A stretch of 64,000 nt of DNA, from positions 230,888,001 to 230,952,000 of the forward strand of contig OZ024741.1 in the NCBI GenBank assembly GCA_964016885.1, given 5' to 3'. The stretch comes from Eledone cirrhosa. Taxonomy: Eukaryota. The notes beneath the pieces are model-generated. The model made no database searches. It saw only the letters and a program-made list of their open reading frames with translations, and had not been told where the DNA came from. The position numbers were made by a program, and so were the translations under genes. Shown in pieces: positions 9,103-62,074 of the stretch. Each line of letters begins with the position of its first letter. Position 1 is the stretch's first letter.

Positions 9103-9531
9103 TGAATTAAATATATCCGTACACACATAAGTGAACATTAAAATGCATGAAAACTTAAATCTAGAGACCATCTGTACTAAATGTAAGATTACATAATTCG
9201 TTGTGTATCCTATTATATTTAATAGAAATATTAAAACAAAATACATGATAACGATAAATATATTTCCCTCATATGTAGTCTCCACAAAATCATATTACAT
9301 TTCACCAAATAACGGCGAAATTAGATATTTTGAAACGGATCATCAGTGAGGGAATTCCAAATCCATCTAATCTCTCCAATGCAAGGTTGAACGTGACTAA
9401 ACGCACATGGTATCAATGTATCAATTTAGCCGACGCGACGACATGAAAGGGTCACGTCTACTAGAAATAGCTGTCCAACATCGCGACATATTAATCAGCT
9501 CAACAAATAAGAAGCAAAAATATTATTATTA

Positions 9532-10777
9532 CATTCTCACACAGACATGGGCCGAGAGGAGGCTGTCCCTGAAAGATCGCGCAGAGGTGGCGAATGCATT
9601 CATCGCATACGTCATCTGCTACCGCCTAAAATGTGTGCCTAGCCCCGACCAAACTCTGACAAAAATGGAGCGACTCCTCTTCCATTTTTATGGAAGGGAC
9701 ATGCTCCCATGGTCAGGCGATCCATCTGCTGTCAACACCCGTTGTGTGGAGGACTGGGCATGCCGTGACTGATGACAAGCTGAGGCTGCGACATCTCTTG
9801 TGCTTCTTGACGGTGAACAGATGTGGTCGCCGTTTGCCATACGTGTTTTTCCCCAGCTCGTCTCATTAACGGAGCTGCAGTCCTGGATCAGGAAAAGACG
9901 GAGGGATAGCGCTTTGAAGCTGGCATGTCTCCAAGCGCTCACCAACTGGGCACCAGTATCGGTGGAACATCTACCTGGGTGTTCTATAGAGGGCTAGTAG
10001 AGGTGAAGTGCGAGGACGTTCTCGGGAAAACCTTGGCGTCGAAGACGATCAGCTGTTCGCTCTCTTCAAGAAAACGTTCAGCCCGAGGCCTGTGGATAAC
10101 TTACAGAAATCCCTGGTATGGCAGTGCTACCGGGGAGCGTTTCCAGTTCGGGATAACTCTACAGGCACGAAAGTGCCGTCAGCCGAACTTGTCCTAGATT
10201 CGCACAGAGCGACGAAACCGTTGTAAACGTACTTGTTCAGTGTCCGAGCAATGCTGACTTGTGGAGCTATGTCGAATATTTGCTATGACGGGTAGGACAG
10301 TATGGTGACAAAGTTGAAAGGATTGAAGACGGACACCTTCATCTTCGGCGAATCCCTGATTAACTTTTTCAAATTCCAATAGAAGAGGAAAACCAGGGTG
10401 GAGAGGCAAGTGTTGCCTTCTTGTAAGTTTGTTGAAAGGTGGGTGAAAGTGGTTAGTCTGGTCCGAGTGAACGGGCCCGCTCTGAGTATGCGCCTGTAGA
10501 CTGAGGAGTGGAAACCTCAGAGAGGGCGCTTGCCCTGGTGGTCAGGGTGGCTGTGGTCTTTCGTGTGGTTTTCGCTACACGTGACTCTTGGAAGTTTTCC
10601 CCCTATTGCGGAATTTTTGATATTTTTGATAATTTTTTTTATATTTCTATATTCTTCTTATAACCATTTTTACATGGCAAAAACGCACTATATATCGTCC
10701 TGTACCGTACTGTGCTGTCTGTAATGTTTTTTCTTCATATTAGCCCTTGTGGCCAATAAAGAAACCATTATTATTAT
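9532..10777 (+). mobile_element. 5'-truncated Tx1-clade LINE (family C 3' end)
   Basis: Starts after TATTATTATT; TQTWAERRLSLKDRAEVAN, SLVWQCYRGAF; 3' UTR matches 44482-44800; ends GCCCTTGTGGCCAATAAAGAAACC(ATT)n. Confidence 0.9.
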
Positions 10778-10778
10778 T

Positions 10779-13700
10779 GTTCTTTGAGTCATTGAATGTT
10801 ATTTAACTGGAAAGTTTGTTGCAATGAATATCAAGCCACTACCTGCAGACTCAGACATTCAGGACATATCGGAGGGATCTTGTGTTCCCAGCAATAATGC
10901 GTTCTAAGGTGTTCCAAAAAGGGCGCTGGACTAATAGTTTTTAACCATCCTTGGAAAATCTTTGAGATAGTACCTAGTGCGCCTATGACAATCGGGACGA
11001 CCTTGATTTCATGGCAGTTCCATTCTTTTTTAACTCCAATTTTAAATACTGCTATCAGTTAATTTTCTCCCTCTCCTTTTCTTGCACTCTCATGTCAAAT
11101 GGGCAGGCTACATTTACAATCAGGCACGATCTTCTTTCCTTGACCAAAACCACCGGGTCAGGCCTATTGTGTCCTGATTTCGTGTCCGTCTGTATCCTAA
11201 AATCACAAAGCACCTTCACCTGATCGTTTTCTATCACTGACGTTGGCTTATTCTCATACCACTTCTCAGAATGTGGTAAAGTGTTTAGTTTGCATAGATA
11301 CCAGTGGATCATCCTGCCCATCACATCATGTCTCCAGTCTTTATAGTGAGTCTGGGCTAGGTGTTTACACTCGGATACAATGCGAGGCACAGTCTCCTCA
11401 CTCTCTCCACAGATCCTACACAGTGAGCTAGTCCCCTCCTTGTCAATATGGTGTTTCACCCACTTGCTTCCGAGGGCTTGCTCTTTCGCAGCCATTAGCA
11501 TTCCTTCTGTAGCCTTTATAAGGTCTCCTCTTTTTAAACAGTTCTGTCTGTGGATCTCTAAATTCCGTTTTCTTAACGAAGCTGCTATAAAGGGATTTTT
11601 TATGAAGGTTGCTCTTCCTCCATGTTGTTATTTCCCCCTTGGACATCCCCTGGTCTATTGTCTTCTCCTTCAGTACAATTTTGAGCATTGGTTCTCTACT
11701 GTCAGCCACATATATGTGTAGGCTGGTTTTCTCCATCTGAAAACAGTCCTCTATGCTGATAAGACCTCTTCCACCATCAGATCTCTTTAAGTAGAGTCTA
11801 TCAACATCACTCCTCTTGTGGAACATGTTGTAGATAGTCATTAGCTTCCTAGTCTTTCTATCCATTTCTTTTTGTGCAGCAACATTCCATTTCAGAATTC
11901 CCGCACTGTACCTAATAATAGACACAGCTCGGGAATGTTCTGCACTTATGATATTCCTACTATTTAGATGTGATTTTAGTATGTTCCTTACTCTCCTAAT
12001 GTACACTGATCAATTCTTTCATTTTTTTTGTTCTTGATATCATCTGCTTCCAGAAAACCTAAATATTGGTATGCTTCTTCAGTGTCAGTTTCCTTTATAA
12101 TCTCACCTGTTGTTACCTGGATTCGGTTGCTTCTGCTCAATTTACCCCTCCTCATCACTAGGACTCCACACTTATTAATACCAAATTGCATACATATATC
12201 ATTGCTGAAAATACGGACAGTGTCAACAAGTAATTCCAGCACCTTCTCACTCTTCCCAAAGAGTTTATGATCGTCCGTGAAGAGGAGGTGATTGATGGTA
12301 AGCTCTCTTTTTCCAACTTGTATCCTGCTCTCACTTTTCGCAGTATAATGGTCAGGGGTATCAGGGCAAGGAGGCAAGGACAAACAACAGAGGGGACAAA
12401 CTATCTCCCTGGAAGATACCTCTCTTGATCTTCACGCCTGCCATGGATTTTCCACCCGATGTTAACTCTGTTTCACACGACTTCATACTCTTGCTCAACA
12501 ACTGTCTGATGTTATCTGCCACCTTGAATATCTCTAGTCTTTTGGTTATCCAAGAATGAGGTACCATGTCGAATAACTTTTTGTAATCTATCCATCGCAT
12601 GGCAAACCATTTTGTCTCCTCTTGCAATTCCTCATTACCATCTTATCAATAAGTAACTGCTCTTTTGTACCACGGGACTTCTTTCGGCATCCTTTCTGTT
12701 CGTCCGGTAACAAGTTGTTTATGTGGAGGTGATGGTAGATTTCCTCAGACTCAATGCTTGTTAACAGTTTCCACATTACGGACAGACATGTGATAGCTCT
12801 ATTGTTTGTAACATTATTACCCTTGCCAAAAGTAGAAACAATTATTACCCTTGATTCGGTCTTTCATTAGCAGAACTCTGGTACCTTTGTCAACCATTCT
12901 GGTACCTCACCCGACATCAAGCAGTCATTGAACATGGTTGTCAGTTTCGGCCTGGTGATTTCCAGTTGGTTAGGTTTTTGGCCAGCCCTATAAGAGTTTC
13001 AACTGTGATACAGTTTGTTGGTGGGCCTGTTCACTAATCTCCTTTTGTACTGTCTCAATCCACACTGCCTGATAATTATGTTCAACATCCTGCTCCCATA
13101 TTCCTCTCCAGAATGTCTTTGTCTGTTCCGCCTCAGGGATCAAGTCGTTGCCTCTTTCTTTCCCTTGAAGCTGTCCAAACAACAACTACTGGTTGTTGTC
13201 AAACTTACGGTTCTGTCTATACTGACTGACTCTGCTCTGATATCGCCTAATCTTTGCACTTTTTGCTGTTTCTTATAACTTTTTCCTGTCTACAAATCTT
13301 AGGTTCATAGGTTTCCCACTATCATTGGTCATTTCATCTACCACTAAGTTTAGGATATAAACCAAATATTGTCTTAGTCCGTCAGCATTCATTTCCTCAA
13401 TGGCCGTATCTTTGTTCCAGATGTTATTTATTTCAGCATTCAGATCATTGTCTGCTTCGGATGTTTCCACCGTTCTCTCAACCTCTTCACCTTCATTTAC
13501 CACTGGCTCGTTTGTCTGGCACACTCCACTCTCCATTTCTAACCTAATCTCTCTGCTCAGTTCCTCCAGTTCCAACTCGCTTATCCATCCATTACTTCTT
13601 ATTACCCGAGCCTGCCCGGCCAATTTTTGTTTATCTAATTTAAATAGTCCAATCTCGTTCCAGATGTTATGCATCCGTTTTTCCAGATGTTATGCATCCG

Positions 13701-13939
13701 TTTCCTATAGCATTTTTCCATGGGGTACTCTTCAGGTAACATTACATGACAGTTCTATACAATTCTTTCGTCCAGGTGGTTCTTGTCCATTTCCTTCTTA
13801 TTCTTCCTTCAACACCAGCAGTACTTGGATGACAGCCAGATCCCTGCTGCTGGGCCAGGGAGCACTTGCTGGGTGAGAGTCTGTCACATGGCGTTCCAGT
13901 CTCATTTTCACCGTTATTCGAACTGTTTAGGTTCGACAT
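10779..13939 (-). mobile_element. R4/Dong-clade non-LTR retrotransposon (Dong-A), decayed, near full ORF with internal deletion
   Basis: IFQGDSLSPLLF, HLLFTDDHKLF (RT), CRICGESEETVPRIVSEC (CCHC-like), RHD..RPD..IVNVACPFD (restriction-like endonuclease); 3' end runs into (AAT)n. Confidence 0.9.
12826..12840 (+). mobile_element. 15-nt SINE 3'-tail insertion with 13-bp target-site duplication inside Dong-A
   Basis: ATTATTACCCTTG-CCAAAAGTAGAAACA-ATTATTACCCTTG; the paralogous Dong site at 58181-58204 is uninterrupted. Confidence 0.85.
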
Positions 13940-14860
13940 TTAAACACTCTTATCGAGGATTGGTGAATGTATGGTTACATAACCACCGGTGATTTTAGCG
14001 TGGCACCATCACGCTGTAGACGAACATAAATAAATAAACAAACAAACAGATACAAACTTTGAAAAATAAACATAAGTTTCATTGTAATGTTTGAATGGCT
14101 GACTTAGTTCTTTTGTTTGTTTGTTTTTTCCTTTACGTTTTTCGTTTTTCGAGGCCCATATCATTGGTTACTAGTGTTGTTGCGTTCAAAACATTTGAAA
14201 TGTGTTTTTTTTGTCTGTGTTCTGTCCTATAATCTTTCGACTTGTTGCTTATTATTATTATTATATTTTAGTTTAGATTTGACATCGTTTAAACTAAATA
14301 TTTTGAGAGAGTTTAGAGTTTAGAGATACAACAACAATAATTATTTTGGTGTTGTTGTTGTTAGCTGTTTGACCGGGGCACTAAATCAGTCTAGTTATAT
14401 CTTTCGATGCCTTCCTCGCTTATTCATCATGTGTGTAGTGGCACTACTACCACCCCTCTCGTAACAGGAGGTAGTGGGGGAATAGTGGTGGCAGCGATGA
14501 TGCAGTGGTGGCGGTGGTGATGGGATAGTAGTATTATAGTGATAGTCTTGCCGTAGCCTGGCTAAATTTTTGTGGTAGTGGAGATGGTGGTGGCGGCGGT
14601 GGTGGTGGTGTTCATGGTGAAATTATTTGGCTGTTGTTCGTAACTATTTACTTTTTTGACTACAACATTTCTGATACAAAATTAAATATTAAATATTGGA
14701 ACCATATGCCATAATGTGATACGTCGCCACTTCTGAGAGTATAAACTGGTATCTTATGTTCCATTTGTAATAAGAATTATTCTATCACAATTGTTTTAAA
14801 TATATAAAAAATCAAAACTTACGGGGACAATTCCATAACACTCTATCCACCATGTGCGTA
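13940..14860 (-). other. Non-coding module upstream of Dong-A ORF (putative long 5' UTR/promoter)
   Basis: Homologous blocks at 37387-38985, 55996-56739 (inverted, proximal part) and 62075-62855 (inverted, distal part). Confidence 0.6.
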
Positions 14861-15111
14861 ACTTCATTTTAATATTATTATTATTATTATTATTATTGAC
14901 GACCTACGTAGGAAATCGTATCATCGTGAGCTCCGCAAAGGTTTGTTGTTTTCGTTTGTTTAAAATTGCCATTTATGGAAAATTTGTGTTGTTAACCATT
15001 TATAAGGTGACACAATTTGCTTTCGGAAAAGGACACTCAAAAAGATTGGGGCCTTGAGCCCAAAATTTAAACATTTATAATTATCAAACAACAATATTTC
15101 TTTGAAAAATC

Positions 15112-17008
15112 ATGAAAGATCCACAGCCACACCTTCCTCACAAACTAACACCTCATACCGACACCACCATTGTAAATATTACTACGTTTGCCAACATTAA
15201 AAATATAAGCAGAAGCAATAATTTAAATTTGTCTCATGAAGACATTCATTTCCCGCCATTACCAATGACGGCAGGTGTTGAAGCCGCCAGCCCCACCACC
15301 ACCACAGCGACAACAGAAACAAAAGAAAAAAAAAATTATCTCGTGACATCGAAATGGATTCACCCAGAATGGACTCTTCCACACTGAACACCACTGACGC
15401 CACCACCACCACAACTGAAACTAAAAATAACGATAACAACAACAGCAACAACAACAATGAGAATAAGAAAACCACCCTGTCTTTTGCCAGAGTAGCAAAA
15501 AAGTGCGAAGCAATCCAGGTAACCCAGGAGGAATTAGATGAAGCCAAGAGAATGGTAAAGAAAGATGGGTACAGGGTCAGCCCCCCCCCCCCCCACACCT
15601 AATAAAATGGAGCATTGGCGCCTATGCACCGTGTCTTATCGGATGATTAACATAAAATCGCGGCGACTGGAACGAGCATACGAGTCCCAAATCCAAAAAA
15701 TCCCACATCAGACGTTGGCAGAAATATTATAGCGTGGACGTGTTCTTTGGAACACCACATGAGACCAGAGAACACTCCATGGCCCCATTAAGAAGTGACC
15801 ACTTCACACTCGTCCCAAGCTATTGTGGCCAGAGACTCGTGAAGATCAGAGTGACCTACGTTCCACCGTCCATCGAAATTCCCTGGCTAATGGCTGCCGT
15901 ACTCACCGGCATCAAGGCCAACACCAAGATAATCGAAATAGCGAAAGAAAAGCAGGAGAACTGGTCCCAATCTGGGATGGAGCTCCTGATCCAAGCGGAC
16001 CAAAAAGCATTGAGGAGATACCAGAGGTATTAGACCTCACTGACGGCAGTCACCTCACCGTAATCGTCGAGGGCAGAAGACCTAGGTGTGTCATTTTTGG
16101 TGAAGGAACCCACCTAAGGGCTTTCTGCCCTCAGGCTAAAAGGTTGAGGCCTCCTCTCTTACCCACCCCAGTGACTCAACCATCAACACCACCAGCAGAG
16201 AGATGGCAGCAACGACTATAGCAGCAACAACAGAAGCAACTGTGACAGCAACAACCCCAGCAACGGTAGCAAAACCAACACCACCACAACGCAACGCGCC
16301 AGAACTAGCACCAGTGCATACACCATTCACCATGCCACAACCAAAACCAACGCCTGTGGAGGATTTTCCACTCTCCAACCTATCGCAACTGGAGACAGAT
16401 TGTGACAACGAGGAGTGGGAAACAGTATCAGGAAAAATGAAAGAAAGAAAAAGAAGCCAAATAAGAAAAAAATCCCCTTCCTTCCCACTCCAAAAACAAA
16501 ATACAGAGGGAAACAAATAAAGTATGAAACAAAAAGGTTAGGACAGCTATGCCACCATCCACACCAGCATCACCAACCCATCACCATAAACACCAACACT
16601 ATCACCATCATTAACCCTAACACCACCATTACCATAACCACAATAGTCACCAAAAAGCGAAGCAGAAACAAACCCACAACAAACGCAAACAAAACAAAAA
16701 ACTAAAAGGATACACACTACACAGCATTAAATTTGAACAACAACCAATTATTACACTACATCCAACACAACACCAGCATCACAGAAAAAGACTACACAAC
16801 ACCCCAAAGGTTCACACCACCTCCACACATACAAATCACTCGCATCACACAGAAAACGTACACGACACTAAAACAAAAATTCTCCAAAGACATCGGAGAC
16901 TTCCGACAAGCACTCTCCAGGAGGATTTATAAGGTCATCCTTCCGGAGGAGGCCACAAGCAGTGAAAAGGATGGAGAAACCATCCCTCCTCTACGAGAAG
17001 TAAGGTAA
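15112..17008 (+). pseudogene. Tx1-A ORF1 (RNA-binding/Gag-like, degenerate zinc knuckle), disrupted
   Basis: IVEGRRPRCVIFGEGTHLRAFC knuckle; T/P-rich linker; several frameshifts; paralogue at 53786-55736. Confidence 0.8.
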
Positions 17009-17042
17009 GTGGTATTTCCGATCTTTTCCAATGTATTTCAAC

Positions 17043-20000
17043 ATGACCTCACTCAGAATAGGCAGCATAAATGCGCGTGGCTTGGGGTCGTCATAGAAGC
17101 AGGGCCACCTGCTCAACGACCTCAGGTCAGGTCACTAAACATAGATGTAGTGGCCATCAGCGAGACCAGAATTTCCGAAGCACGGGCCTTCACACCGATC
17201 TTCGGCGGTTACGATGTGTACGCATCTCCCAGCCATCCTGAATCGGGGGGAGGAGGTTTTATGCTTTTTAGAGAAGTTTGGAACTCGCCATACGGGACAT
17301 ATTCCTGGATCCAGAAGGTAAGGTGATGGTGCTGGACGTGACCAGCGGAGACCGGCAAGCTTTCAGGCTAGGGGCCGTCTATGCCCCGACAGGAGCAGGG
17401 CGGCCTGATTTCTCCCGGCGTCTGGAGACCTTTCTTGGAACGTCCCGCTCTTTAGTGTTAGTGCGCGACTGGAACGGGATCTTAGATGCACGCTGGGATT
17501 CTTTGGGATTAGCGGATAGGGCAGGAGGCTGCAAGAGACTCACCAACCTGCTCAGGCATTTTGAACTGTCTGACAGGTACCTATTGGATTTCCCGAATGT
17601 GCCAATGTGGACTTGGACAAACCGCATAGGGTCATCATGATCATATCTAGATAGAGTATTTTGTACGGAAACAGATAGGTCTAGTATAGGCTGTCCACAA
17701 TTCAAGATAGTCAGCTACACGGACGACAAATTCGTGATCTGTGTGCTTGACTTAGATAGGCTTCATAGACGAGGACCCGGCTACTGGAAGCTAAACGCGT
17801 CCTTACCAGCGCGCAAGGCCTACAGAGACCGGATTAGCGAACTAGTTAAGCGGGCGTTGACGAGGGCCAACGTCAATAACAAGTGGTGCTTTGGCCTGAA
17901 AAGAGCGATTAGAGTAGAGTCCATTAGGTTTAGTAAGCCTTTAGCAATAGAGAAAAATAGAGCAGAGAGAGAACTAGTTAGAAAATTAGACGAGGCGCTT
18001 AGTAAAGGCATCGCGACCGACGTACTTGCAGCGAAATTGGCCCTTGATCAATTCTTCAATGCAAAGAACGAAGGCTGTGTTTTCAGAGCTAGCGTGCGTG
18101 CTCTCAGACACGAGGGGCGAAAGTCATTCAATGGGCCCGAGTGGCGGAGGCGCGTCGTGGCAACAAAGCCACGGTCCGGTCTTTGGTGGACCTCGACGAG
18201 CGCATGCTACTCGATCCTGGGCAAATGTGTGAAACTTTTCAGTGACATTTCGCTCAGCTGTTCGGGGGCAGCGGCGGGCCGGGTCAAGGGATGGACTTTA
18301 GTGTCTACTTCGACGGACTGCCGCGGCTCTCGGGCACTGAAGCGGAGTTTTGCGAAAAGCTGATAACAGCCACTGAAGTATGGGAGGCAATGACTGGCTG
18401 CACAAGGGGTAAATCGCCTGGTTTGGATGAACTGCCCTATGAACTTTACGTACAAATGCCAAACTTGTTCGGAGGCCTCTTGCCGGACGTCTACTGCAAC
18501 TGGCAACAGAACGGGAGAATTCCCAGCTATGTGAGCCGAGGAGCGGTGGCGCTGCTGAGAAAGGATCTGAACAAATGGGGATAACATTGATAATTTCAGG
18601 CCCATAACTCCACTAAACACAGAGTTCAACAGTTTGGCCAATGTTCTAGCAAAGAGGTTGGCGCTTGTCGTTGGTGGTCTGGTGGGAGAGGCGCAGACAT
18701 GCGCCATTACCGACAGATCCATCCACAACAACCTCCATCTCATACGAAACATCGTAGAGAGTGTAGCTATGGAACCTGGCACGGGTGGGTACTTGATCAA
18801 TTTAGATCAGTCGAAATCTTTCGATAGGGTCGACCATCTTTACCTAGCGGCAGTCCTGGGGGTGGCTCGCTTTGGGCCCGTCTTCAGAGGCTGGATCGCT
18901 GCCATGGACAACGGCATCTGCTCTGTGGTGAGAGGGATCGGTCACCTTTCGGAACCGTTGAACATGATGTGATCGGTCCCCCAAGTATGTCCCCTCTCGT
19001 CCCTCTTTTACTTATTGACTCTCGAGCCATTACTGCACAAACTGGAGACGTTGAGGCGGCCCCGCGCGAACTAAGATGCGGAAGATCCGTGTCAGCATAT
19101 GTGGACGATGTCACCGTAGTGGTGTCGAACGCCAAATACATCGAGGCGATCGGCACTACACTAAGAGAATACGAAACGGTGACAGGAGCAATGATTTACC
19201 AGGAAAAGTCAGTGGGCCTGAAGCTCGGCACCTGGAGAGTCAAGTCCATGCCATCCAACAGTGTTATCGGGCGCTGGAGGTACGGGCCGGTTAAATTGCT
19301 AGCGCCTGGTTCGGTCCGGAACTCCATGCGGACAAAATCTGGGACGTGGTGACGAGCAGGGTGGCTTCTCTCACCCAGAAATGGGGGGAGAGGAAGCTAT
19401 CCTTGAAAGGTCGAGCGTAGGTGGCTAACGGTTACATCGTGCTCGACATCTACTACCGTGTGACCGTCGTACCTTGTCCTAAGCTCTGCCTGACTGCGGT
19501 GGAGCGTTTGCTCTTTCGCTTTTTGTGGAAGGGATGAGCTGGGATGGTCAAGCGGTTCATTTGCTGTCAACACCCGCTACGTGGAGGGCTGGGAATGCCG
19601 TGGCTGATAATGCGCAAACACGCTCTCAGGCTACGACATCTCCACCTCTTCCTCGACGGTAATGAGGTGAGGTCACCGTTTGATAGACACGTCTTTCCCC
19701 AACTCGTCTCCTTGACGGAGCTGCAAACCTGGGTCAAGCGAAAACAGAGAGGGAGCGCTTGGAGACTGGAATGTCTTCAGGCGCTCACAGCTCTCGACCA
19801 ATGGGGCAATGTGATCAGTGAAAACTCCAACTTGGCGTTCTATAGAGGATTAGTAGAGGGGAAGAGCGACGATGTACTTGGGGAAACTCTAGGCGTCGAC
19901 GAAAATAAACTAGCCAATCTTTTCGGAAGAACTTTCGGGCCGGGGCCTATGGGCAACTTCCAGAAATCCCTGGCCTGGCAGTGCTACCGAGGAGCTTTGC

Positions 20001-20464
20001 CAGTTCGGGATAAACTCTACAGGCATGTAGGTACCGTCAGCCGGGCATGTCCGAGATGCGCGCAGGACGACGAAACCGTCCTGCACGCACTCGTCCAGTG
20101 ACCGAGCATTGCTGACTTGAGGTTTTATGTCGAACACCTGCTGTCGCGTGTAGGACGGATCCAGCTATCAGCTGAGTCCATCGTGAGGATTGCCCCGCCA
20201 TCTTCCTTTAGCCGGGAAGGGCAGGCAGTGTTCATCTGTCTGATGTCCATGGCGAAAGGGATAGTATGGTGGACACGTTTGAAAGGGCTGAAGACGAGCA
20301 CTTACCTCTTCGGTGATGCCCTGATTAACTTTTTCAAATTTCATTTGAAAAGGAAAATCAGGGTAGAGAGGGAAGCGCTCTCTTCCCAGCATTTTGTTGA
20401 AAGGTGGGTGAGAGAGGCAAGAATGGCCTGAGTGAATGAGCCTACTCTGAGTATGTGTCTGTAA
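17043..20464 (+). pseudogene. Tx1-A ORF2 (APE endonuclease-RT-CCHC), disrupted
   Basis: MTSLRIGSINARG, AISETR, VYAP, DWN, PGYWKLN, NLDQSKSFDRV, YVDD, CPRCAQDDETVLHALVQ. Confidence 0.9.
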
Positions 20465-20729
20465 ATTAATGGTGGAAAACTGGGAGAGGACACTTGCCCT
20501 GGTGGTCACGGTCACTGTAGCTTTTTATAGGGCTTTCTCCACGAATGTCCCTCAGAAGTCTCCCCCCTATTGGGGAAATTTCTTCATTGTTCTATTATTA
20601 CATCCTCTGTTTCTTGATTTTCCAAGCAGAAATGCCCTTTTGTACCGTCCTGTATTGTCCTGTACTGTCCTTAATGTCTACTTTGTGTAAACCCTTGTGG
20701 TTAATAAAGAAAGCATTATTATTATTATT

Positions 20730-29372: not shown

Positions 29373-29386
29373 GTATTATAATTATA

Positions 29387-44435: not shown

Positions 44436-44467
44436 AAAAACTGGAGCCGATAGGAAGCGTGGCTTCA
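44436..44467 (-). mobile_element. Remnant 5' terminus (~32 nt) of an oppositely oriented Tx1-C
   Basis: Reverse complement TGAAGCCACGCTTCCTATCGGCTCCAGTTTTT matches 39024-39055; abuts (AAT)n. Confidence 0.8.
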
Positions 44468-49307: not shown

Positions 49308-49325
49308 GATAATAATAATGATAAT

Positions 49326-49513
49326 AATTGTTTCTAGTTTAGGCACAAGGCCAGCAATTATCCAGTACATTACTAGTACTTTATTTTATCGACCCCGTAA
49401 GGATGAAAGGCAAAGTTAACCTCGGCGGGATGTGAAACCAGAGTGTAAAGGGACGAAACTATGCTAGAAAGCATGGCGTCCAAGCCCCTACCGATACTGC
49501 CAATTCCCCACCC
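49326..49513 (-). mobile_element. SINE copy between two Tx1 elements
   Basis: Head, core and tail; AAT runs on both sides. Confidence 0.88.
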
Positions 49514-49532
49514 TTAATAATAATGATAATAA

Positions 49533-52500: not shown

Positions 52501-52872
52501 TCCTGTCTAAATTCGACCTACAAGACACTATGCGGTTGGTCCGCGTCTACACTGGCGCATTGAGGAAATCTAGTCGATACCTGTCAGACAGTTGGGACTG
52601 GCTGATAAGGTGCTCCCATCAGCTACTCCCAGACAATCCCAGCGTGCGTCTAAGAAACCGTTCAAGTCCCCCGCTAACTGTAAAGAGCGAGACGTACCGA
52701 GAAAGATGTTGAGGCGCCTAAAGAAGTACGGTCGTCCGCCCCCAGTAGGGGCGTAGACGGCCAGCAGTCTAAAGGCACCACCTTCACTACTGCTCACATA
52801 CAGGACCACCAACTTACGGTCCGGGTCTCTGAAGATCAACCTTACCTCGAGTTCGAGATCCAGGCCTTTCCT
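49533..52872 (-). mobile_element. Tx1-B-like ORF2 plus 3' UTR (diverged subfamily)
   Basis: LINLDQSKAFDR, VYADD, B-type 3' end CGGCCCTTATGGCAATTAAATGAAATCATT. Confidence 0.88.
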
Positions 52873-55800
52873 ATTGCTAAAGCCTTACTAAACCTAATGG
52901 ACTCTATTCTAATTGCTCTTTTCAGAGCAAACCACCATTTGTTGTTGACGATGGCCCACGTCAACGCACGCTTAACTAGTTCGCTAATCCGGTCTCTGTA
53001 GGCCTTGTGCGCTGGTAAGGACGCGTTTAGCTTCCAGTAGCCGGGTCCTCGTCTATGAAGCCTAAGTCAAGTACACGGATCACGAATTTGTGGTCCGTGT
53101 AGCTGAATATCTTGAATTGTGGACAGCCTATGCTACACCTATCTATTTCTCTACAACATACTCTATCTAGATATGATCTGGATGACTCTATGCGATTTGT
53201 CCAAGTCCACATTGGCACATTCGGGAAATCCAATCCGTACCTGTCAGACAGTTCAAAACGCCTGATCAGGTTGGTGAGGCTCTTGCACCCCCTCCCCTAT
53301 CCGCTAATCCCACACAGTCCCAGCGTGCATCTAAGATCCCGTTCCAGTCGCCCACTAACACTAAAGAGCGGAACGTTCCAAGAAAAGTCTCCAGACGCCG
53401 GAAGAAATCAGGCCACCCTGCTCCTGTCGGGGCATAGACGGCCACTAGCCTGAAAGCTTCCCCGTCTCCGCTGGTCACGTCTAGCACCACCAACTTACCT
53501 TCTGGGTCCAGGAAAATGGCCCGTATGGCGAGATCCAAACCTCTCCGAAAAATCACAGCAACTCCCCCCCCCCCCCGATCCCGGACGGCTGGGAGATGCG
53601 TACACATCGTAGCCGCCGAAGATCGGTGCGAAGATCTCGCTGATGGCCACTACATCCATGTTTAGTGACCTGATGTCGTTGAGCAGGTGACCCTTCTTCC
53701 GTGACGACCCCAAGTCACGCGCATTTATGCTGCCTATTCTGAGTGAGGTCATGTTTGAAATGGAGTGGAAGATGGGAAAGACCACTTACCTTACTTCTCG
53801 TAGAGGAAGGATGGTTTGTCCATCCTTTTCACTGCTTGTGGCCTCCTCTGGAAGGATGTCCTCATAAATCCTCCTGGAGAGGGTTTGTCGGAAGTCTCCG
53901 ATGTCTTTGGGGAATTTTTGTTTTAGTGTCGTGTCAGTTTTCTGTGTGATGCGAGTGATTTGTATGTGTGGAGGTGGTGTGTATTTTTTGGTTGTTGTGC
54001 AGTCTTTTTCTGTGATGCTGGTGTTGTGTTGCATGTAGTGTAATAATTTTTTGTTGTTCAAATTTAATGCTGTGTAGTGTGTATCGTGTTGGTTGTTTTG
54101 TTTTGTTTGCGTTTGTTGTGGGTTTGTTTCTGTTACGCTTTTTGGTGACTTTTGTGGTGTTGGTGATGGTGGTGTTGGGGTTAATGATGGTGATGGTGTT
54201 GGTGTTTGTGGTGATGGGGTTGGTGATGCTGGTGTGGATGGTGGCATATCTGTGTTAACTTGTTTGTTTGATAATTTATTTGTTTCCCTCTGTATTCTGT
54301 TTTTGGAGGGGAAAGGAGGAGAATTTTTTTCTTTTTTGATTTCTTTTTTTCTTTTTTCCTGATACCGTTTAACCACTCCTCGTCGTCACAATCTGTCTCC
54401 ATTTGCGATAAGCCGGGGAGTGGAAAAAACCTCCACAGGCGTTGGTTTTGGTTGTGGCGTGGTGGATGGTGTAGGCGCTGCTGCTAGTTCTGGCGCGTTT
54501 GGTGGTGATGGTGTTGGTTTTGCTACTGTTGCTGGGGTTGTTGCTGTTACAGTTGCTTCTGTTGTTGCTGCTACAGTTGTTGCTGCCATTTCTGCTGCTG
54601 GTGGTGTTGATGGTTGAGTCACTAGGGTGGGTAAGAGAGGTGGCCTCAACCTTTTAGCCTGAGTGCAGAAAGCCTTTAGGTGGATTCCTTCACCTCAAAC
54701 GACACACCTAGGTCTTCTGCCCTCGACGATTACGGTGAGGTGACTGCCGTCAGTGAGGTCTATAACGTCTGAGATTTCCTCAATGCTTTTATGGTCCGCT
54801 TGGATCAGGAGCTCCATCCCAGATACGGACCAGTTCTCCTGCGTTTCTTTCGCTATTTCAATTATCTTGGTGTTGGCCTCGATGCCGGCGAGGACGGCAG
54901 CCATTAGCCAGGGAATTTCGATGGCCGGTGGAACGTGGGCACCCTGATATTCACATGTCTCTGGCCACAATTGCTTCGGATGAGTGTGAAGTCGTCACTT
55001 CTTAATGGGGCCATGGAGTGTTCTCTGGCCTCCTGTGGTGTTTCAAAGAACACGTCCACGGTTCCATAATTCTGCCAACGTCTGATGTGGGTTTTCTTTG
55101 CCCACACATGTCCCAAAGCTTTTTGGATTTGGGACTCGGCTGCCCGTTCCACTCGGCGCGATTTTATTTAATTGTCCGATAAGACACGGTGCATAGGCGA
55201 TGTTGCTCCCTATTATTAGGTGTGGGGGGATGCTGACCCTGTACCCATCTTTCTTTACCATCCCTTTGGCTTCTTCTAATTCCTCCTGAGTTACCTGGAT
55301 CGCTAATCACGTTTTTGCTACTCTGGCAAAACTCAGGGTAGTTTTCTTAATTTCATAGTTCTGTTGTTGTTATCGTTATTTTTGCTATTGTTAATTTTAG
55401 TTTTAGTTGTGGTGGTGGTGGCGTCTGTGGTGTTCGGTGTGGAAGAGTTTATTTTGGTTGAATTCATTTCGATATCACGAATTAATTAATTTTTTTCTTT
55501 TGTTTCTGTTGTCGCTGTGGTGGTGGTGGGGTGGTGGCTGTCGCGGTGGTGGTGGTGGTGGCGGCTTTAACACCTGCAGTCATTGGTAATGGCGTGAAAT
55601 GAACGTCTGCCTGAGACAAATTAAAAATATTGCTACTGCTAACATTTCCAGTGTTGGCAAACGTAGCAATATTTACAATGGTGGTGTCGGTGTGAGGTGT
55701 TAGATTGTGAGGAAGGATTGACTCTGAGTCATCCATTATTTTTTGAAAGAAACATTTTTGTTGATAATTATAAAAAATTTAAATTTTGGGCTCAAGGCCC

Positions 55801-55959
55801 CAACATTTAAATTTTTTTGAGTGTCCTTTTCAGAAATCAATGTATGTGCACTTATATACAGTTAACAATAAAAAATTTCCATAAATGCCAATGTTAAACA
55901 ACTGAAAATAACAAACCTTTGCGGAGCTCACGATGATACGATTTACTGCGTAGGTCGCC
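52873..55959 (-). mobile_element. 5' half of Tx1-A (5' UTR, ORF1, endonuclease) joined directly to the B-like ORF2
   Basis: Colinear with 14898-17950; ORF1 ATG 55736, ORF2 ATG 53752; 5' end abuts (AAT)n. Confidence 0.9.
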
Positions 55960-55992: not shown

Positions 55993-56062
55993 TACTGTAT
56001 CTCTAAACTCTCTCAAAATGTTTAGTTTAAACGATGTCAAATCTAAACTATAAAATAATAAT

Positions 56063-56150
56063 AATTGTTTCTGCTTTTGGAACGGGGCCAGCAATTGACC
56101 CGGTGTGTGGCTAGTGCTTGGTTTTGTCGGCCCCGTAAGGATGAAACGAA
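56063..56150 (-). mobile_element. 5'-truncated SINE with A-to-G (plus strand) hypermutation
   Basis: Aligns to SINE tail/core with clustered A>G changes. Confidence 0.8.
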
Positions 56151-56163
56151 AAATAAAAATAAT

Positions 56164-56342
56164 AATTGTTTCTACTTTTGGCACAAGGCCAGCAATTACC
56201 CAGTGTATTGCTGGTGCTTTGTTTTATCGACCCCGTGGGGATGAGGGGCGGGGTTGACCTCGGCGGGATTTCACTCGGACTGTAGGTGGTCGTGGCTCTG
56301 TGCTTCAGGGCTTGGTGTCCGACTCTCTACCGATAATGCCAA
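56164..56342 (-). mobile_element. Near full-length SINE with A-to-G (plus strand) hypermutation
   Basis: CGTGGGGATGAGGGGCGGGGTTGAC versus CGTAAGGATGAAAGGCAAAGT(T/A)AAC at 2820, 3576 and 49396. Confidence 0.85.
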
Positions 56343-59300
56343 ATGATAAGCAACAAGTCGAAAAATTATAGAACAGAACACAGACAGAAGCAAACGCAAC
56401 AACAAAAACAAATTTCAAAACTGTTTAACACAACAACCTCTTCTTCCCATAGCAGCAGCAGCAGCAGAACACCAACACTAGTAACCGATGTTACTGATCT
56501 AGAAAAACGAAAAACGCAAAGGAAAAGAACAAACAAACAAACAAAAAACTAAGTCAGGCATTCAAACATTACAATGAAACTTATGTTTATTTTTTAAAGT
56601 GTTCATCTATTTTTAGTTTATTTATTTATGTTCGTCTACAGCGAAATATCCCCAAAGCAACAGCAAAATCACCGGGGGTGATGAAGTCACCGGTGGTTAT
56701 ATAACCATGCATTCACCAATCCTCAATATGAATGTTTAAATGTCGAACCTAAACAGTTCGAATAACGGTGAAGAGGAGACTGGAACGTCATGTGACAGAC
56801 TCCCACCCATCAGGTGCTCCCTGTCCCAGCAGCAGGGACCTGGCTGTCATCCAAATACTGCTGGTGTTGGAGGAAGAAGAAGAAGGAAAGGGACAAGAAC
56901 CAACTTGACGAAATAATTGAATACAACTTTTATGCAATGTTACCTGAAGAGTAACCCCAAGGAGAAAGGCTATAGGAAGCGGATGCATAACATCTGGAAC
57001 GAGATTGTTCTATTTAAATTAGATGAACAAAAATTGGCCGGGCAGGCTCCGGTATTACGAACTAATGGGTGGATAAGCGAGCTGGAACAGGAGGAACTGA
57101 GCAGAGAGATTAGGTTGGAAATGGAGAGTGGAGTATGCCAGGCAAACGAGCCAGTGGGAAATGAAGGTGAAGTGGTTGAGAGAACGGAGGAACCATCCGA
57201 AGCAGACAATGATCTGAATGCTGAAATAAATAATACCTGGAACAACGATACGGCCATTGCGGAGATGAATGCTGACGGGCTAGGACAAGATTTGGTTGAT
57301 ATCCTAAACTTAGTGGTAGATGAATTGAACAATTATAGTGGGAAACCTATGAACCTAAGATTTGTAGACAGGAAAAAGTTAAAAGAAGCAACAGCTAAGG
57401 TAAACAAAGTCAGCCCATACCTTGAGGCGAGGAAACTTCACCAATGCAAAAATATCCGCAAAGCAACGGCAAATACAGTGAGGAGATTACTTGGCATAAA
57501 AATGAGAGGAACCAACAAACAAGAAAGATCAGAGCATTGGTGGAAGAAACGACTGAATGGTCAAATCAGGGAAATGAGAAATAACATTGGAAAGCTTGAG
57601 TCCCTACTGAATGGGACACTACAAAACATAGACATTTAAAAATAGACTGGAAACAAAGTACAAAACTAGGAAGAAAAAGCTAAATATTATCATAGAGGAA
57701 CTGAAGCAACGCATTGTAGCAAAGAGTGCAAAGATTAGGCGGTATGAGAGCAGAGTCAGTCGGTATAGACAGAACCGCATGTTTGACAACAACCAGTTAT
57801 TGTTTGGGCAGCTTGAAGGGAAAGAAAGAGGAAACGACTTGATCCCTGAGGCAGAACAGACTAAGACATTCTGGAGAGGAATATGGGAGCAGGATGTTGA
57901 ACATAACGTTCAGGAAGTGTGGATTGAGACAGTACAAAAGGAGATTAGTGAACAAGCACACCAACAAACTGATTTAAGTATCACAGTTGAAACTCTTAAA
58001 GGGCAGGCCAGGAAACTAACCAACTGGAAATCACCAGGCCCAAATGTTGTGCAGGGGTATTGGATTAAAAATATAACATCCCTCAACACAAAACTGACAA
58101 CCAAGTTCAATAACTGCTTGATGTCAGGTGAAGTACCAGAGTGGTTGACAAAAGGTACCACAGTTCTGGTAATGAAATACCGAATCAAGGGTAATGATGT
58201 TACCAACTATAGACCTATCACATGTCTGTCCGTAATGTGGAAACTGTTGACAAGCATTGTGTCTGAAGAAATCTACCATCACCTCCACATAAACAACTTG
58301 TTACCGGACGAACAGAAAAGATGCCGAAAGAAGTCCCGTGGTACAAACGACCAGCTACTTATTGATAAGATGGTAATGAGGAATTGCAATAGGAGACACA
58401 CTGGTCTGGCCATGGGATGGACAGACTACAAAAAGGCATTCGACATGGTACCTCTTTCTTGGATAACCAAAAGCCTAGAGATCTTCAAGGAGGCAGATAA
58501 CATCAGACAGTTGTTGAGCAAAAGTATGAAGTCCTGGGAAACAGAATTAACATCAGCTGGAGAATCCTTGTGAGGCGTGAAAATCAAGAGAGGTATCTTC
58601 CAGGGAGATTGTCTGACCCCTCTGTTGTTTGTCCTTGACCATTATATTGCGAAAAGTGAGAGCATGATATAAGTTGGGAAAAGTAGAGTTTACCATCAAC
58701 CACCTCCTCTTCATGGACGATATTAAACTCTTTGGGAAGAGTAAGAATGAGTTTGATGTACTTGTTGACACTGTCCGTATTTTCAGCAGTGATATATGTA
58801 TGCAATTTGGTATTAATAAGTGTGGAGTCCTTCTGATGAAGTGGGGTAAATTGAGCAGAAGCAACGGAATCCAGGTACCAACAGGTGAAGTGATAAAGTA
58901 AATTGACACTGAAGAGGGATACAAGTATTTGGGTGTTCTTGAGGCTGATGACATCAAGAACAAAAAAATGAAGGAATTGATAAGATCTGAATACATTCGG
59001 AGAATAAGGAGCGTATTAGATTCACATCTGAACAGTAAGAATGCCATAAGTGCAGTAAATTCCCGAGCTGTGTCTATTATTAGGTACAGTGCGGGAATTC
59101 TGAGATGGAATGTTGCTGAACAAAAAGAAATGGATAGGAAGACTAGGAAGCTATTGACTATATCCAACATGTTCCACAAGAGGAGTGATGTCGATAGACT
59201 CTACTTAAAGAGATCTGAAGGTGGAAGAGGTCTTATCAGCATAGAGGACGACTGTATTCAGATGGAGAAAAACAACCTACACAAATACGTGACTGATAGT

Positions 59301-59580
59301 AAGGAGCCAATGCTCAGAATTGTTCTGAAGGAGAGAATAATAGACCAGGGGATGTCCAAGGAGGAAATAACAACAAGGAGGAAAACCAACCTTCGTGAAA
59401 AATCCCTTCATAGTACCTACCTTGAGAAAACTGAATTTAGAGATCCACAGACATGGAACTGGTTAAAAAGAGGAGACATTAAAAAGGCTACAGAAGGAAT
59501 GCTAATGGCTGCGCAAGAGCAGGCACTCAAAACGAAGTGGGTGAAACACCATATTTACAAGTTAGAGGCTAGCCCACTGT
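56343..59580 (+). mobile_element. Dong-A with proximal 5' UTR and most of ORF (ATG 56740); 3' end lost
   Basis: WKSPGPN, NYRPITCL, DYKKAFDMV, IFQGD, FMDDIKLF, EGGRGL; stops just inside the CCHC finger. Confidence 0.9.
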
Positions 59581-60405
59581 GGATTTGGGATACGGATGCC
59601 CGTTCCAGTCGGCGCGATTTTATGTTAATCGTCCGATAAGACACGATGCATAGGCGCCGATGCTCCATTTTATTAGGTGCGGGGGAGGGGGGCTGACCCT
59701 GTACCCATCTTTCTTTACCATTCTCTTGGCTTCATCTAATTTCTCCTGAGTTACCTGGATTGCTTCGCACTTTTTTGCTACTCTGGCAAAAGACAGGGTG
59801 GTTTTCTTATTCTCATTGTTGTTGTTGGTGTTGTTGTTTTCGTTATTTTTCTTATTGTTATTTTTAGTTTCAGTTGTGGTGGTGGTGGTGGCGTCAGTGG
59901 TGTTCGGTGTGGAAGATTCCATTCTGGGTGAATCCCTTTCGATGTCATGAGATCATTTATTTATTTTGTTTCTGTTGGCGCTGTGATGGTGGTGGTGATG
60001 GGGGGGGGGGGGGGGGGGGTCAGCACCTGCAGTCATTGGTAATGGCGGGAAATGAATGTCTGCATAAGACAAATTTAAATAATTGATACTGCTTATATTT
60101 TTAGTGTTAGCAAACGTAGTAATATTTACAATGGTCGTATCGGTGTGAGGTGTTAGTTTGTGAAGAAGGTGTGACTGTGAGTCGTACATGATTTTTTTCA
60201 AAGAAACTTTTTTGTTTGATAATTATAAAAGTTTAAATGTTGGGTTCAAAGCCCCAATCTTTTTGAGTGTCCTTTTCCGAAAGCAAGTTGTGTGACCTTA
60301 TAAATAGTTAACAACACAAATTTTACATAAATGGCAATTTTAAACAAACGAACACAACAAACCTTTGCGGAGCTCACGATGATCCGATTTCCTACGTAGG
60401 TCGAC
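59581..60405 (-). mobile_element. Tx1-A 5' UTR plus ORF1 N-terminus, 3' part lost
   Basis: Colinear with 14898-15695; TTLSFARVAKKCEAIQVTQE. Confidence 0.9.
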
Positions 60406-60486: not shown

Positions 60487-60489
60487 GAG
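60406..60489 (+). repeat. (AAT)n(GAA)9GGAG compound microsatellite; left target-site duplicate
   Basis: Same structure at 61971-62066. Confidence 0.85.
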
Positions 60490-61965
60490 TTGGATGTGCT
60501 TGTTGACACTGTCCGTATTTTCAGCAGTGATATATGTATGCAGTTTGGTATTGGTAAATGTGGAGTCATTGTGATGAAGAGAGGTAGGTTGAGCAGAAGT
60601 AACGGGATCCAGATACCAACAGGTGAGATGATAAAGGAAATTGACTCTGAGGAAGTATACAAGTATTTGGGCGTTCTGGAGGCTGATGGCATAAAGAACA
60701 AAAAAATGAAGGAATTGTTAAGAACTGAATACATTCGGAGAGTAAGGAGCGTATTGAAGTCACATCTGAACAGCAGAAATGCCATAAGCGCAGTAAATTC
60801 CCGAGCTGTGTCTATTATTAGGTACAGTGCGGGAATTCTGAGATGGAATGTTGCTGAACAAAAAGAAATGGATAGGAAGACTAGGAAGCTATTGACTATC
60901 TACAACATGTTCCACAAGAGGAGTGATGTCGATAGACTCTACCTAAGGAGATCTGAGGGTGGAAGAGGTCTTATCAGCATAGAGGACTGTGTTCAGATGG
61001 AGAAAAACAACCTATACAAATACGTGACCTATAGTAAGGAGCCAATGCTCAGAACTGTACTGAAGGAGGGGACAGTAGGCCAGGGGATGTCCAAGGAGGA
61101 AATAACATCAAGGAGGAAGAGCAGCCTTAAGGGAAAATCCCTTCATAGTACCTGTTTTGAGAAAACTGAATTTAGAGATCCACAGACATGGAACTGGTTG
61201 AGAAGAGGAGACCTCAAAAAGGCTACAGAAGGAATGCTAATGGCTGCGCAGGAGCAGGCCCTCAAAACGAAGTGGTTGAAGCACCATATCTACAAGGAGG
61301 AGGCTAGCCCACTGTGCAGGATCTGTGGAGAGAGAGAGGAGACTGTGGCTCAGATTGTGTCCGAGTGTAAACACCTAGCCCAGACCCACTATAAGGGCTG
61401 GAGACACGATGTGATGGGCAGGGTGATCCACTGGCACCTGTGCAAAGTAAACAATTTACCACATTCTGAGAAATGGTATGAGCATAGGCCAGAGGCGGTG
61501 ATGGAGAACAATCAGGTGAAGGTGCTGTGGGATTTTAGGATACAGACGGACAAAAAACTGGAACACAATAGACCTGACCTGGTGGTTGTGGACAAAGAAA
61601 AAAGATCGTGTCTGATTGTGGATGTGGCCTGCCCGTTCGACACGAGAGTGCAAGAGAAGGAGAGGGAGAAAATTAACCGATACCAGGACCTAAAGTGGGA
61701 GGTGAAAAGGATTTGGAACTGCCATGAAGTCAAAGTGATCCCGTTTGTCATAGGCGCACTGGGGACTATCTCCAAAAGTTTCCAGGGATGGTTAAAGAGA
61801 ATCGGCCCCTTCACGCTTTTTGGAACGCTTCAAAAGGCATGCTTGCTTGGAACAGCAAGAACCCTCCGATACGTCCTGAATATCTGAGGCTGCAGGTAGT
61901 GGCTTGATATTCAATCCAACGGACTTTCCAGTTAACCAACATCAATGACTGAGATTCAAGGAATA
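60490..61965 (+). mobile_element. Young 5'-truncated Dong-A copy; uninterrupted 465-codon frame (RT C-terminus, CCHC-like finger, restriction-like endonuclease)
   Basis: YKYLG, EGGRGL, CRICGEREETVAQIVSEC, RHD, RPDLVV, IVDVACPFD, KINRYQDL, IGALG; 3' UTR runs into (AAT)n. Confidence 0.93.
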
Positions 61966-61970
61966 ACAAC

Positions 61971-62051
<81 letters not shown>

Positions 62052-62066
62052 AAGAAGAAGAAGGAG
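61971..62066 (+). repeat. (AAT)n(GAA)13GGAG compound microsatellite; right target-site duplicate
   Basis: Mirrors 60406-60489. Confidence 0.85.
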
Positions 62067-62074
62067 AGGGAAGG

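What the first reader, a model, noticed from the sequence alone, without database searches (positions are those of the whole stretch)
9520..62070. A multi-family retrotransposon community sharing one (ATT)n niche with strict strand polarity
Seen: over more than 50 kb almost every intact element boundary is an (ATT)n/(AAT)n run (9521, 10767, 14873, 20715, 26560, 29375, 34697, 35057, 38990, 44467, 49309, 49515, 55960, 60406, 61971). Tx1 families and the SINE read into ATT, whereas Dong families read into TAA. As a result Tx1 and Dong meet tail-to-tail (10778, 26583, 34714) or head-to-head (14880, 29400, 39000, 55970), and Tx1 copies stack head-to-tail (20730). Established: Bombyx Dong targets TAA repeats and several Tx1-clade families are microsatellite-specific. 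Inference: APE-type and RLE-type endonucleases converged on opposite strands of one repeat. Each insertion regenerates target via its tail and TSD, giving a self-propagating safe-harbour cluster, possibly inside a host intron.
Basis: partly seen in the sequence, partly recalled or inferred. Interest (0 to 1): 0.75.

Follow-up and report, generated by a model that had tools for sequence, protein, structure and literature searches.

The report
Opposite-strand retrotransposon nests in ATT repeats
In this animal genome two unrelated kinds of jumping gene and a small hitch-hiker element sit in the same three-letter ATT/TAA repeat facing fixed, opposite ways and pile up in long nests, likely because they cut opposite strands of the repeat and each insertion copies the landing site for the next one.

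Summary
Confirmed and genome-wide. Three Tx1-type (APE) LINE families and a Tx1-tailed SINE read into ATT; two Dong/R4-type (RLE) families read into TAA. Dispersed full-length heads follow a same-polarity run in 82/86 Tx1 and 25/29 Dong copies, 5'-truncated copies in 18/28 and 41/57, never the opposite run; background 0.15%. 124 of 127 neighbour pairs obey the polarity. SINE target duplications (mostly 12-21 nt) start at pyrimidine|ATTAT, pointing to the endonuclease rather than tail pairing alone. Corrections: polarity is local (it flips at a broken joint, 44436); the SINE needs only ATTAT; the nest runs on to about 114 kb, largely in a predicted 85-kb intron. Additions: Dong-A carries its own (TAA)5 in its 5' UTR, filled by antisense SINEs in 17/27 copies; two such SINEs here are A-to-G hypermutated on the Dong strand and inherited (likely ADAR); a sister Tx1 lineage uses (ATCT)n. 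Precedents: Dong/TAA, Kibi/Koshi, TRAS1/SART1 on opposite telomere strands. Nicking is untested. This scan noted the same pattern several times elsewhere in this genome. New variant of a known kind.

The parts
6983..7243 (+). Predicted host exon, F-type lectin / F5-F8 type C domain, first half
   Evidence: Pfam F5_F8_type_C_2 E=9e-07; AG/GT ends
7557..7754 (+). Predicted host exon ending in LCEVEV; its donor opens a predicted intron of about 85 kb that holds the nest; next EGF-like exon at window-coordinate 92415, same phase
   Evidence: no Pfam hit on its own; no RNA
1..6659 (-). Older, more diverged Tx1 and SINE pieces in the preceding predicted intron, AAT-on-plus polarity
9532..10766 (+). 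5'-truncated Tx1 (C family) with ATT runs on both sides (9521-9531, 10767-10778); left edge of the nest
10779..14872 (-). Dong-A, near full length; includes the 608-nt leader (14265-14872)
14249..14264 (-). Internal (TAA)5 of the Dong-A 5' UTR, empty here: built-in target
   Evidence: leader + run + body contiguous in dispersed copies
14898..20714 (+). Tx1-A, full length, ATT on both sides
20730..26563 (+). Tx1-B, full length; APE domain 22853-23308, RT 24429-25658
   Evidence: Pfam Exo_endo_phos 6.6e-06, RVT_1 2e-21; human L1 endonuclease E=3e-04
26583..29374 (-). Dong-B, 5'-truncated, TAA runs on both sides
29426..34695 (+). Tx1-B second copy, 92% identical, internal deletions
34714..35056 (-). 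Dong-A 3' fragment
35078..38990 (-). Dong-A whose internal TAA site is filled by SINEs
37775..38383 (+). SINE plus tandem 62-nt repeats of its 3' end and a second truncated SINE, antisense to Dong-A
39019..44436 (+). Tx1-C, 3' end lost at the polarity switch
44437..44466 (-). 30-nt head of a second Tx1-C facing the first; repeat-free broken joint where polarity flips
   Evidence: not verified by reads
44482..49308 (-). Tx1 with C-type body and B-type head, internal deletion at 45670
49329..49514 (-). SINE inserted at the C|ATT joint of a Tx1 tail with a 19-nt target duplication
49534..52870 (-). Tx1-B-like 3' part, joined without repeat to Tx1-A
52867..55959 (-). Tx1-A 5' part
55993..59581 (+). 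Dong-A, truncated in the leader, 3' end lost at 59580
56066..56157 (-). Truncated SINE in the Dong-A leader, 10 of 26 A changed to G on the Dong strand, 0 of 28 T to C; same pattern in 29 other places
56167..56342 (-). Near full SINE in the Dong-A leader, 19 of 48 A changed to G on the Dong strand, 0 of 45 T to C; core pattern in 10 other places
59580..60405 (-). Tx1-A head fragment
60487..61970 (+). 5'-truncated Dong-A with open RLE end (zinc-knuckle-like motif, RHD, RPD, D..K); (AAT)17(AAG)n on both sides
   Evidence: R2 RLE structures E about 1e-03
62064..64000 (+). Dong-B 5' part (continues to window-coordinate 67132)
62980..63158 (+). SINE in sense to Dong-B, at an internal short ATT-frame site of its leader

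Best explanation
The window is part of a nest of Tx1-type and Dong-type LINEs and a SINE that share one microsatellite in fixed opposite orientations, likely because the Tx1 APE endonuclease nicks the AAT strand and the Dong RLE endonuclease the TTA strand to prime reverse transcription. Shown: orientation rule, 5' and 3' repeat flanks across the genome, target duplications, nesting. Inferred from the TPRT model: the Tx1 machine, also used by the SINE, cuts 5'-ATAAT|R-3' (top strand Y|ATTAT); the RNA's repeat tail likely pairs with the freed end; each event duplicates 12-21 nt of target and adds a tail, and Tx1 tails end in C|ATTAT, the preferred site, so old copies become landing sites. Dong-A also exports a (TAA)5 site in its own leader; SINEs land there antisense, and when such a copy transposed again the SINE part had likely been A-to-I edited by ADAR as double-stranded RNA, so the edits were inherited. 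Later deletions and a duplication broke some joints and fused nests of opposite polarity.
For: Heads (queries without repeat): same-polarity run >=9 nt within 35 nt in 27/28 Tx1-A, 28/29 Tx1-B, 27/29 Tx1-C, 25/29 Dong-A, opposite 0; 127 of 173 ends abut another member, 124 in the predicted orientation. 5'-truncated tail-intact copies: Tx1 18/28, Dong 41/57, opposite 0 (18 and 7 rows dropped as internal deletions). Background 30 of 20000 random 35-mers. Ends beside runs in 171 dispersed loci: Tx1 189/189, Dong 179/182, SINE 75/76. SINE duplications: 116 of 210, 88 of the 101 informative ones 12-21 nt; base before the duplication C 41, T 21, A 5, G 1 of 68 (33 rows beside SINE tails or ATT dropped) against 18% C and 64% pyrimidine before ATTAT in random DNA (p 8e-15 and 2e-07), although the SINE RNA has A there. 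Sister Tx1 lineage (separate side of a 100/100 branch) has (ATCT)n upstream in 20/29 and ATT in 0/29: target is family-encoded. Leader trap: 17 of 27 intact Dong-A leaders hold antisense SINEs. Editing: 5' neighbour T/A in 23/29 edited versus 20/43 unedited A (p 0.007); inverted SINE pair at L297 with both arms A-to-G on one strand (15 and 20 changes; 5' G in 1/46 versus 20/60).
Against: No biochemical nicking. 10/28 Tx1 and 16/57 Dong truncated copies lack the upstream run; 3 neighbour pairs break the rule (L186, L199 and one Dong-B tail). The SINE is not confined to microsatellites: only 10 of 36 random-region copies have an upstream run >=8 nt. No base-level target consensus could be derived for Dong; only L198 and the 60406/61971 pair suggest Dong duplications. 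Searches return the 40 best of 386-3413 candidates, so samples lean to young copies; the Tx1-A tail query contained the repeat, so its 29/29 is biased. Most leader SINEs (12 of 17) are unedited and the double-strand partner of the edited ones is not identified.
Confidence: 0.8

Rival explanations
1. Tail pairing sets the polarity: both endonucleases nick AT-rich DNA loosely and only nicks whose free end pairs with the RNA's AUU or UAA tail are used.
For: Tails match targets in every family, also the ATCT lineage; 3'-end annealing helps SART1 start accurately (PMC7265360, passages); SINE sites need only ATTAT.
Against: The base just outside the duplication is C or T in 62/68 although the SINE RNA has A there; endonuclease swaps transfer specificity between SART1 and TRAS1 (same paper). 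No such test exists for Dong here, so this rival stays open for Dong.
Confidence: 0.15
2. The repeats are only tails, and nests arise by random insertion followed by retention in gene-poor or intronic DNA.
For: Tx1-like DNA is 6.4%, Dong 1.2%, SINE 2.0% of random samples; TE hotspots are reported in Octopus vulgaris (PMC13282606, passages).
Against: Base-precise ATT|G joints at young heads; 23 of 86 Tx1 heads have no member upstream yet nearly all have the run; zero opposite-polarity runs.
Confidence: 0.02
3. The pattern comes from duplication or co-transposition of a few composite arrays, or from misassembly.
For: A duplication of about 24 kb lies at window-coordinates 80-114 kb; SINEs are co-transposed inside Dong leaders; could not bridge the 44436 joint.
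Against: Upstream neighbours of one head type are Tx1 tails of several families, SINE tails, Dong ends at many truncation points and unrelated DNA, on many contigs; copies in the window differ by 8-30%.
Confidence: 0.03

Closest known systems
TRAS1Bm and SART1Bm in silkworm telomeric (TTAGG)n (PMC7265360, passages read)
   Same: Two LINE families enter one short repeat in opposite directions; endonuclease is the main determinant, RNA 3' pairing assists.
   Different: Both are APE elements (R1 clade, recalled) at telomeres; here an APE and an RLE element plus a SINE share a dispersed microsatellite that their own tails and duplications supply.
Dong / R4 clade: Bombyx Dong, DongAg, DongBg, ostracod Dong (PMC3812793, PMC7998251, passages)
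   Same: RT plus C-terminal RLE; (TAA)n target read TAA in element sense; said to be usual in insects, molluscs and cnidarians.
   Different: Dong-A carries an internal (TAA)5 in its leader that traps SINEs; no HDV-like ribozyme found at the head, unlike Bombyx Dong (PMC3774820, passages).
Kibi (TC)n, Koshi (TTC)n, crocodilian Tx1 in (TTCC)n/(TTTC)n; Tx1-Mar with SINEU (PMC4494074, passages)
   Same: Tx1-clade microsatellite targeting; a SINE sharing the Tx1 target, with tandem insertions sandwiching a duplication.
   Different: Target words ATT and ATCT are not among those listed; sharing with an RLE element on the other strand is not described there.
Edited retroelement copies in DNA: APOBEC G-to-A in LTR elements (PMC4866542, passages), ADAR-edited inverted Alus in 3 of 235 L1-made insertions in cultured cells (PMC11702581, passage)
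   Same: Clustered one-way deamination fixed by reverse transcription; ADAR neighbour bias (low 5' G, PMC2873906 passage).
   Different: Here A-to-G on the carrier's sense strand, inherited in the germ line and amplified as LINE sub-lineages in an invertebrate.

Membership tests
Tx1 clade | N-terminal APE endonuclease in ORF2 | tested here: met
   Exo_endo_phos 6.6e-06; L1 endonuclease structures E=3e-04
Tx1 clade | RT followed by C-terminal zinc-binding domain | tested here: met
   RVT_1 2e-21; zf-RVT in four copies, one above the Pfam cut-off
Tx1 clade | RT groups with Tx1 references | tested here: inconclusive
   Named hits include Transposon TX1 149 kDa, YTX2, tx1-3 aae at 29-34%; no Repbase set, no clade tree
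Tx1 clade | ORF1 with zinc knuckle | tested here: inconclusive
   Motif search found none in the three decayed window copies searched; a CCHC-type motif is readable by eye in the sister copy L164
Tx1 clade | Target preference (more than 20% of flanks, criterion of PMC4494074) | tested here: met
   82 of 86 heads
R4/Dong clade | RT with C-terminal restriction-like endonuclease, no APE | tested here: met
   RVT_1; RHD, RPD, D..K motifs; only structure matches are R2 RLE domains; no APE hit on Dong ORFs
R4/Dong clade | (TAA)n target in element sense | tested here: met
   25/29 heads, 41/57 truncated copies
R4/Dong clade | N-terminal divergent SANT/Myb domain (PMC7998251) | not tested
   No Pfam hit on 56917-57636; no profile comparison was run
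R4/Dong clade | RT phylogeny with R4/Dong references | not testable with these tools
   453 homologues, none named as a clade among the 120 listed
R4/Dong clade | HDV-like ribozyme at 5' end (Bombyx Dong; not known as universal) | tested here: inconclusive
   No Rfam match; own descriptor found none in 12 heads but had no positive control
Tx1-dependent SINE | Tail like the partner LINE, same target and polarity, target duplications | tested here: met
   3' ends compared; 75/76 ends conform; duplications
Tx1-dependent SINE | tRNA-derived head | tested here: inconclusive
   ARAGORN and Rfam found nothing; likeness to octopus OK SINE is recalled only
ADAR hyper-editing fixed in DNA | One-way, one-strand A-to-G clusters with 5' G depletion, confined to double-strand-forming sequence | tested here: met
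   only 2 further clusters in 505 LINE alignments, both A-to-G on Dong sense
ADAR hyper-editing fixed in DNA | Same sites edited in RNA | not testable with these tools
   no RNA run listed

The most novel reading that the evidence does not exclude
A self-building retrotransposon guild: a Tx1 lineage moved onto the opposite strand of Dong's ancient TAA target, so APE and RLE elements manufacture each other's landing sites; Dong-A even ships a landing site in its own leader, which by the polarity rule loads its mRNA with antisense SINE, turns it into an ADAR substrate in the germ line and writes RNA edits into heritable LINE sub-lineages.
Probability: 0.4. Interest if true: 0.72.

Novelty: new variant of a known kind. 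Interest (0 to 1): 0.5.

Why it matters
It gives a natural test set for how LINE endonucleases choose and switch targets: sister Tx1 lineages on ATT and ATCT with thousands of copies, a base-level site consensus from a partner SINE, and an unrelated RLE on the other strand of the same word. It offers a mechanism for the TE hotspots reported but not explained in octopus genomes (PMC13282606) and for introns swollen by tens of kilobases. The leader trap links target choice to inherited A-to-G editing.

Tried and rejected
Own-genome searches with the Dong-A 3' end and the SINE returned nothing because very common words are skipped; no conclusion drawn. One search used an internal, not a head, query for the ATCT lineage; heads were recovered from the flanks. 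No RNA holder listed. Contigs of X1-X3 were too short to bridge the 44436 joint. Homologue search with the lectin exon found nothing. Atlas look-ups gave no result. HDV-ribozyme search negative without control. A clean inversion as cause of the 9521-44436 block was considered and rejected: its left edge is an intact ATT joint; deletion between two opposed nests fits better but is unproven. Twin priming at 44436 rejected (no tail-bearing part). In the tree automatic tail labels failed for 33 of 44 rows; sides were assigned and one row (L141) has no known tail. L326 edits (8/48 and 10/29) are weak and not counted as support. Xiong and Eickbush 1993, Kojima and Fujiwara 2004 and the first TRAS/SART papers were not seen; Repbase entries and supplements were not read and may already list ATT-specific Tx1 families. 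Ten paper searches showed no report of Tx1 and Dong sharing ATT/TAA on opposite strands nor of inherited ADAR-edited SINEs in LINE leaders.
Full report
Setting. The window is G000:C2:230888001-230952000 of a 3.0-Gb animal genome. It is likely an octopod: the SINE resembles octopus OK SINE (recalled), Dong-R4 and L1-Tx1 are among the recently active LINEs of Octopus vulgaris (PMC13282606, passages), and earlier scan notes say so; I did not test this.

Observation. ATT/AAT runs lie at all listed places. Runs of 12 nt or more number 14 in 64 kb against 16 in 400 kb of evenly spaced samples. Self-comparison and mapping resolve three Tx1 families (A, B, C), two Dong families and one SINE. Tx1 ORFs carry APE, RT and zf-RVT and have Tx1-named homologues. 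Dong ORFs carry RT and an RLE end whose only solved relatives are R2 proteins. In the window plus flanks 59 of 60 ends beside a run obey the rule. The rule is local: runs read ATT on + up to 39018 and AAT on + from 44467; the switch is a repeat-free break at 44436 joining two Tx1-C copies that face each other. Two more breaks lie at 52867 and 59580. The nest goes on to about window-coordinate 114 kb, with a second nest at -74 to -27 kb and a duplication of about 24 kb.

Queries without the repeat fetched the best 30 of 563-1936 candidates per head. A same-polarity run of 9 nt or more lies within 35 nt upstream in 27/28 Tx1-A, 28/29 Tx1-B, 27/29 Tx1-C and 25/29 Dong-A heads, an opposite run in none (window copies left out). 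Truncated copies with intact tails, which cannot carry a 5' repeat of their own, show it in 18/28 Tx1 and 41/57 Dong, opposite in none; 18 and 7 rows were dropped as internal deletions. Random 35-mers show it in 30 of 20000. Of 173 sampled ends 127 abut another member, 124 in the predicted orientation, 3 not. Over all runs in 171 dispersed loci Tx1 conforms 189/189, Dong 179/182, SINE 75/76; in the random samples 6/8, the exceptions lying at AAT/ATT turn-points or an internal Dong-B site. So the repeats are targets, not only tails.

Mechanism. In TPRT (established for R2 and L1) the nicked strand is the one antisense to the new copy, so Tx1 and SINE would use the AAT strand and Dong the TTA strand; this step is inferred. 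The SINE gives base-level data because it also lands on short sites (only 10 of 36 random-region copies have a run of 8 nt upstream): 116 of 210 tail-intact copies have a duplication, 88 of 101 informative ones of 12-21 nt, starting ATTAT; the base before it is C 41, T 21, A 5, G 1 of 68, against 18% C and 64% pyrimidine before ATTAT in random DNA. The SINE RNA has A at that place, so pairing does not explain the bias; an L1-like cut at T|purine does. Tx1 tails end in C|ATTAT, the favoured site, and the SINE at 49329-49514 sits exactly there with a 19-nt duplication that repeats a diagnostic ATC unit. For Dong no such consensus was obtained; L198 and the (AAT)17(AAG)n pair around 60487-61970 suggest duplications. 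A sister Tx1 lineage met in random samples has (ATCT)n upstream in 20/29 and ATT in 0/29 and falls on the other side of a 100/100 branch (unrooted), so the target word is family-specific and has switched once in an unknown direction.

Built-in target and editing. The 608-nt piece at 14265-14872 is the Dong-A leader: leader, (TAA)5 and body are contiguous in dispersed copies. Of 27 intact leaders 17 hold one to three SINEs, all antisense, 9 are empty, 1 holds something else (my count). In the window one is empty (14249), one filled (37775-38383), one filled by two hypermutated SINEs: 10/26 and 19/48 A-to-G on the Dong strand, no T-to-C, with T or A 5' of 23/29 changed versus 20/43 unchanged A. 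The first pattern recurs in 29 of 29 other loci fetched with it, the second in 10 other places, so edited copies kept transposing. None of 68 random-region SINE hits showed five or more such changes. A sense SINE fragment in the Dong-B leader, shared by L034, L148 and a flank copy, has 5 A-to-G on the carrier strand (weak). L297 holds an inverted SINE pair with both arms A-to-G on one strand, folding as a long hairpin: the ADAR signature. 12 of the 17 filled leaders are unedited, and the pairing partner of the edited ones is unknown.

Host gene. Predicted + strand exons: EGF-like at -74093 and -1413, F-type lectin at 6983-7243 (Pfam 9e-07) and 7557-7754, EGF-like from 92415 on, phase-compatible. 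The nest would fill an intron of about 85 kb. No RNA confirms this.

Comparison. Dong on TAA (PMC3812793, PMC7998251), Tx1 on microsatellites with a partner SINE (PMC4494074) and two LINEs on opposite strands of one repeat (TRAS1/SART1, PMC7265360) are all in print; I read passages of each. Not found in ten searches: ATT-targeting Tx1, APE/RLE sharing on opposite strands, a target inside a LINE leader, inherited ADAR-edited SINEs in it; Repbase and closed journals were not seen. ADAR-edited insertions made by L1 are reported in cultured cells (PMC11702581, passage). Earlier notes of this scan describe the polarity rule, the ATCT lineage and edited SINEs in other pieces of this genome; I reached each by my own calls before reading them, and they are not independent support.

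Verdict. Real, strong and general; a new variant of known target-specific retrotransposition, with a testable endonuclease model and a link to heritable RNA editing. Interest 0.5.

Noticed in passing
L297 1500-2106 (G000:C1 near 356649600): Inverted SINE pair plus a third fragment, all A-to-G hypermutated on one strand, outside any Dong; how the edited RNA returned to DNA is unexplained.
   Followed up: partly
L128 7532-7651 (window-coordinate 81532-81651): A further, independently hypermutated antisense SINE (17 of 35) in a Dong-A-type leader just beyond the window.
   Followed up: partly
L326 991-1168 and 2351-2470: Two SINEs in inverted orientation with modest A-to-G excess on the same strand; second may be an older subfamily.
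   Followed up: partly
L163, L164, L328-L356: Sister Tx1 lineage stacked head-to-tail in (ATCT)n; no Dong-like partner seen upstream in these loci.
   Followed up: yes
window 14820-14872, 29426-29480, 49250-49308, 62064-62130; L331: Heads of Dong-A, Dong-B, Tx1-B and the ATCT lineage share a GCTC...GTAAG-like motif 30-55 nt from the 5' end, possibly a common promoter element or splice donor; 44482-49308 has a B-type head on a C-type body.
   Followed up: no
window 60406-60486 and 61971-62063; L198, L195, L042, L060, L220: (AAG)n recurs between the AAT run and Dong 5' ends or beside Tx1 heads; possible long Dong duplication or repeat conversion.
   Followed up: partly
window 37904-38277: Six tandem 62-nt copies of the SINE 3' end, a minisatellite born from the SINE tail and its duplication.
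   Followed up: no
window-coordinates 80-114 kb (L128-L131): Duplication of about 24 kb including nest and an EGF-like exon; a Dong-B tail ends about 30 nt before the acceptor of the exon at 114085.
   Followed up: partly
window-coordinates -74 kb to 121 kb: Host gene with EGF-like and F-type lectin exons; outside 9521-44436 Tx1 copies, whose tails carry AATAAA, lie mostly antisense to it, which selection against early polyadenylation could explain.
   Followed up: no
L194 1496-2102; L059 1-420: A-to-G clusters on Dong sense outside SINE sequence (12 of 15 and 8 of 11 mismatches).
   Followed up: no
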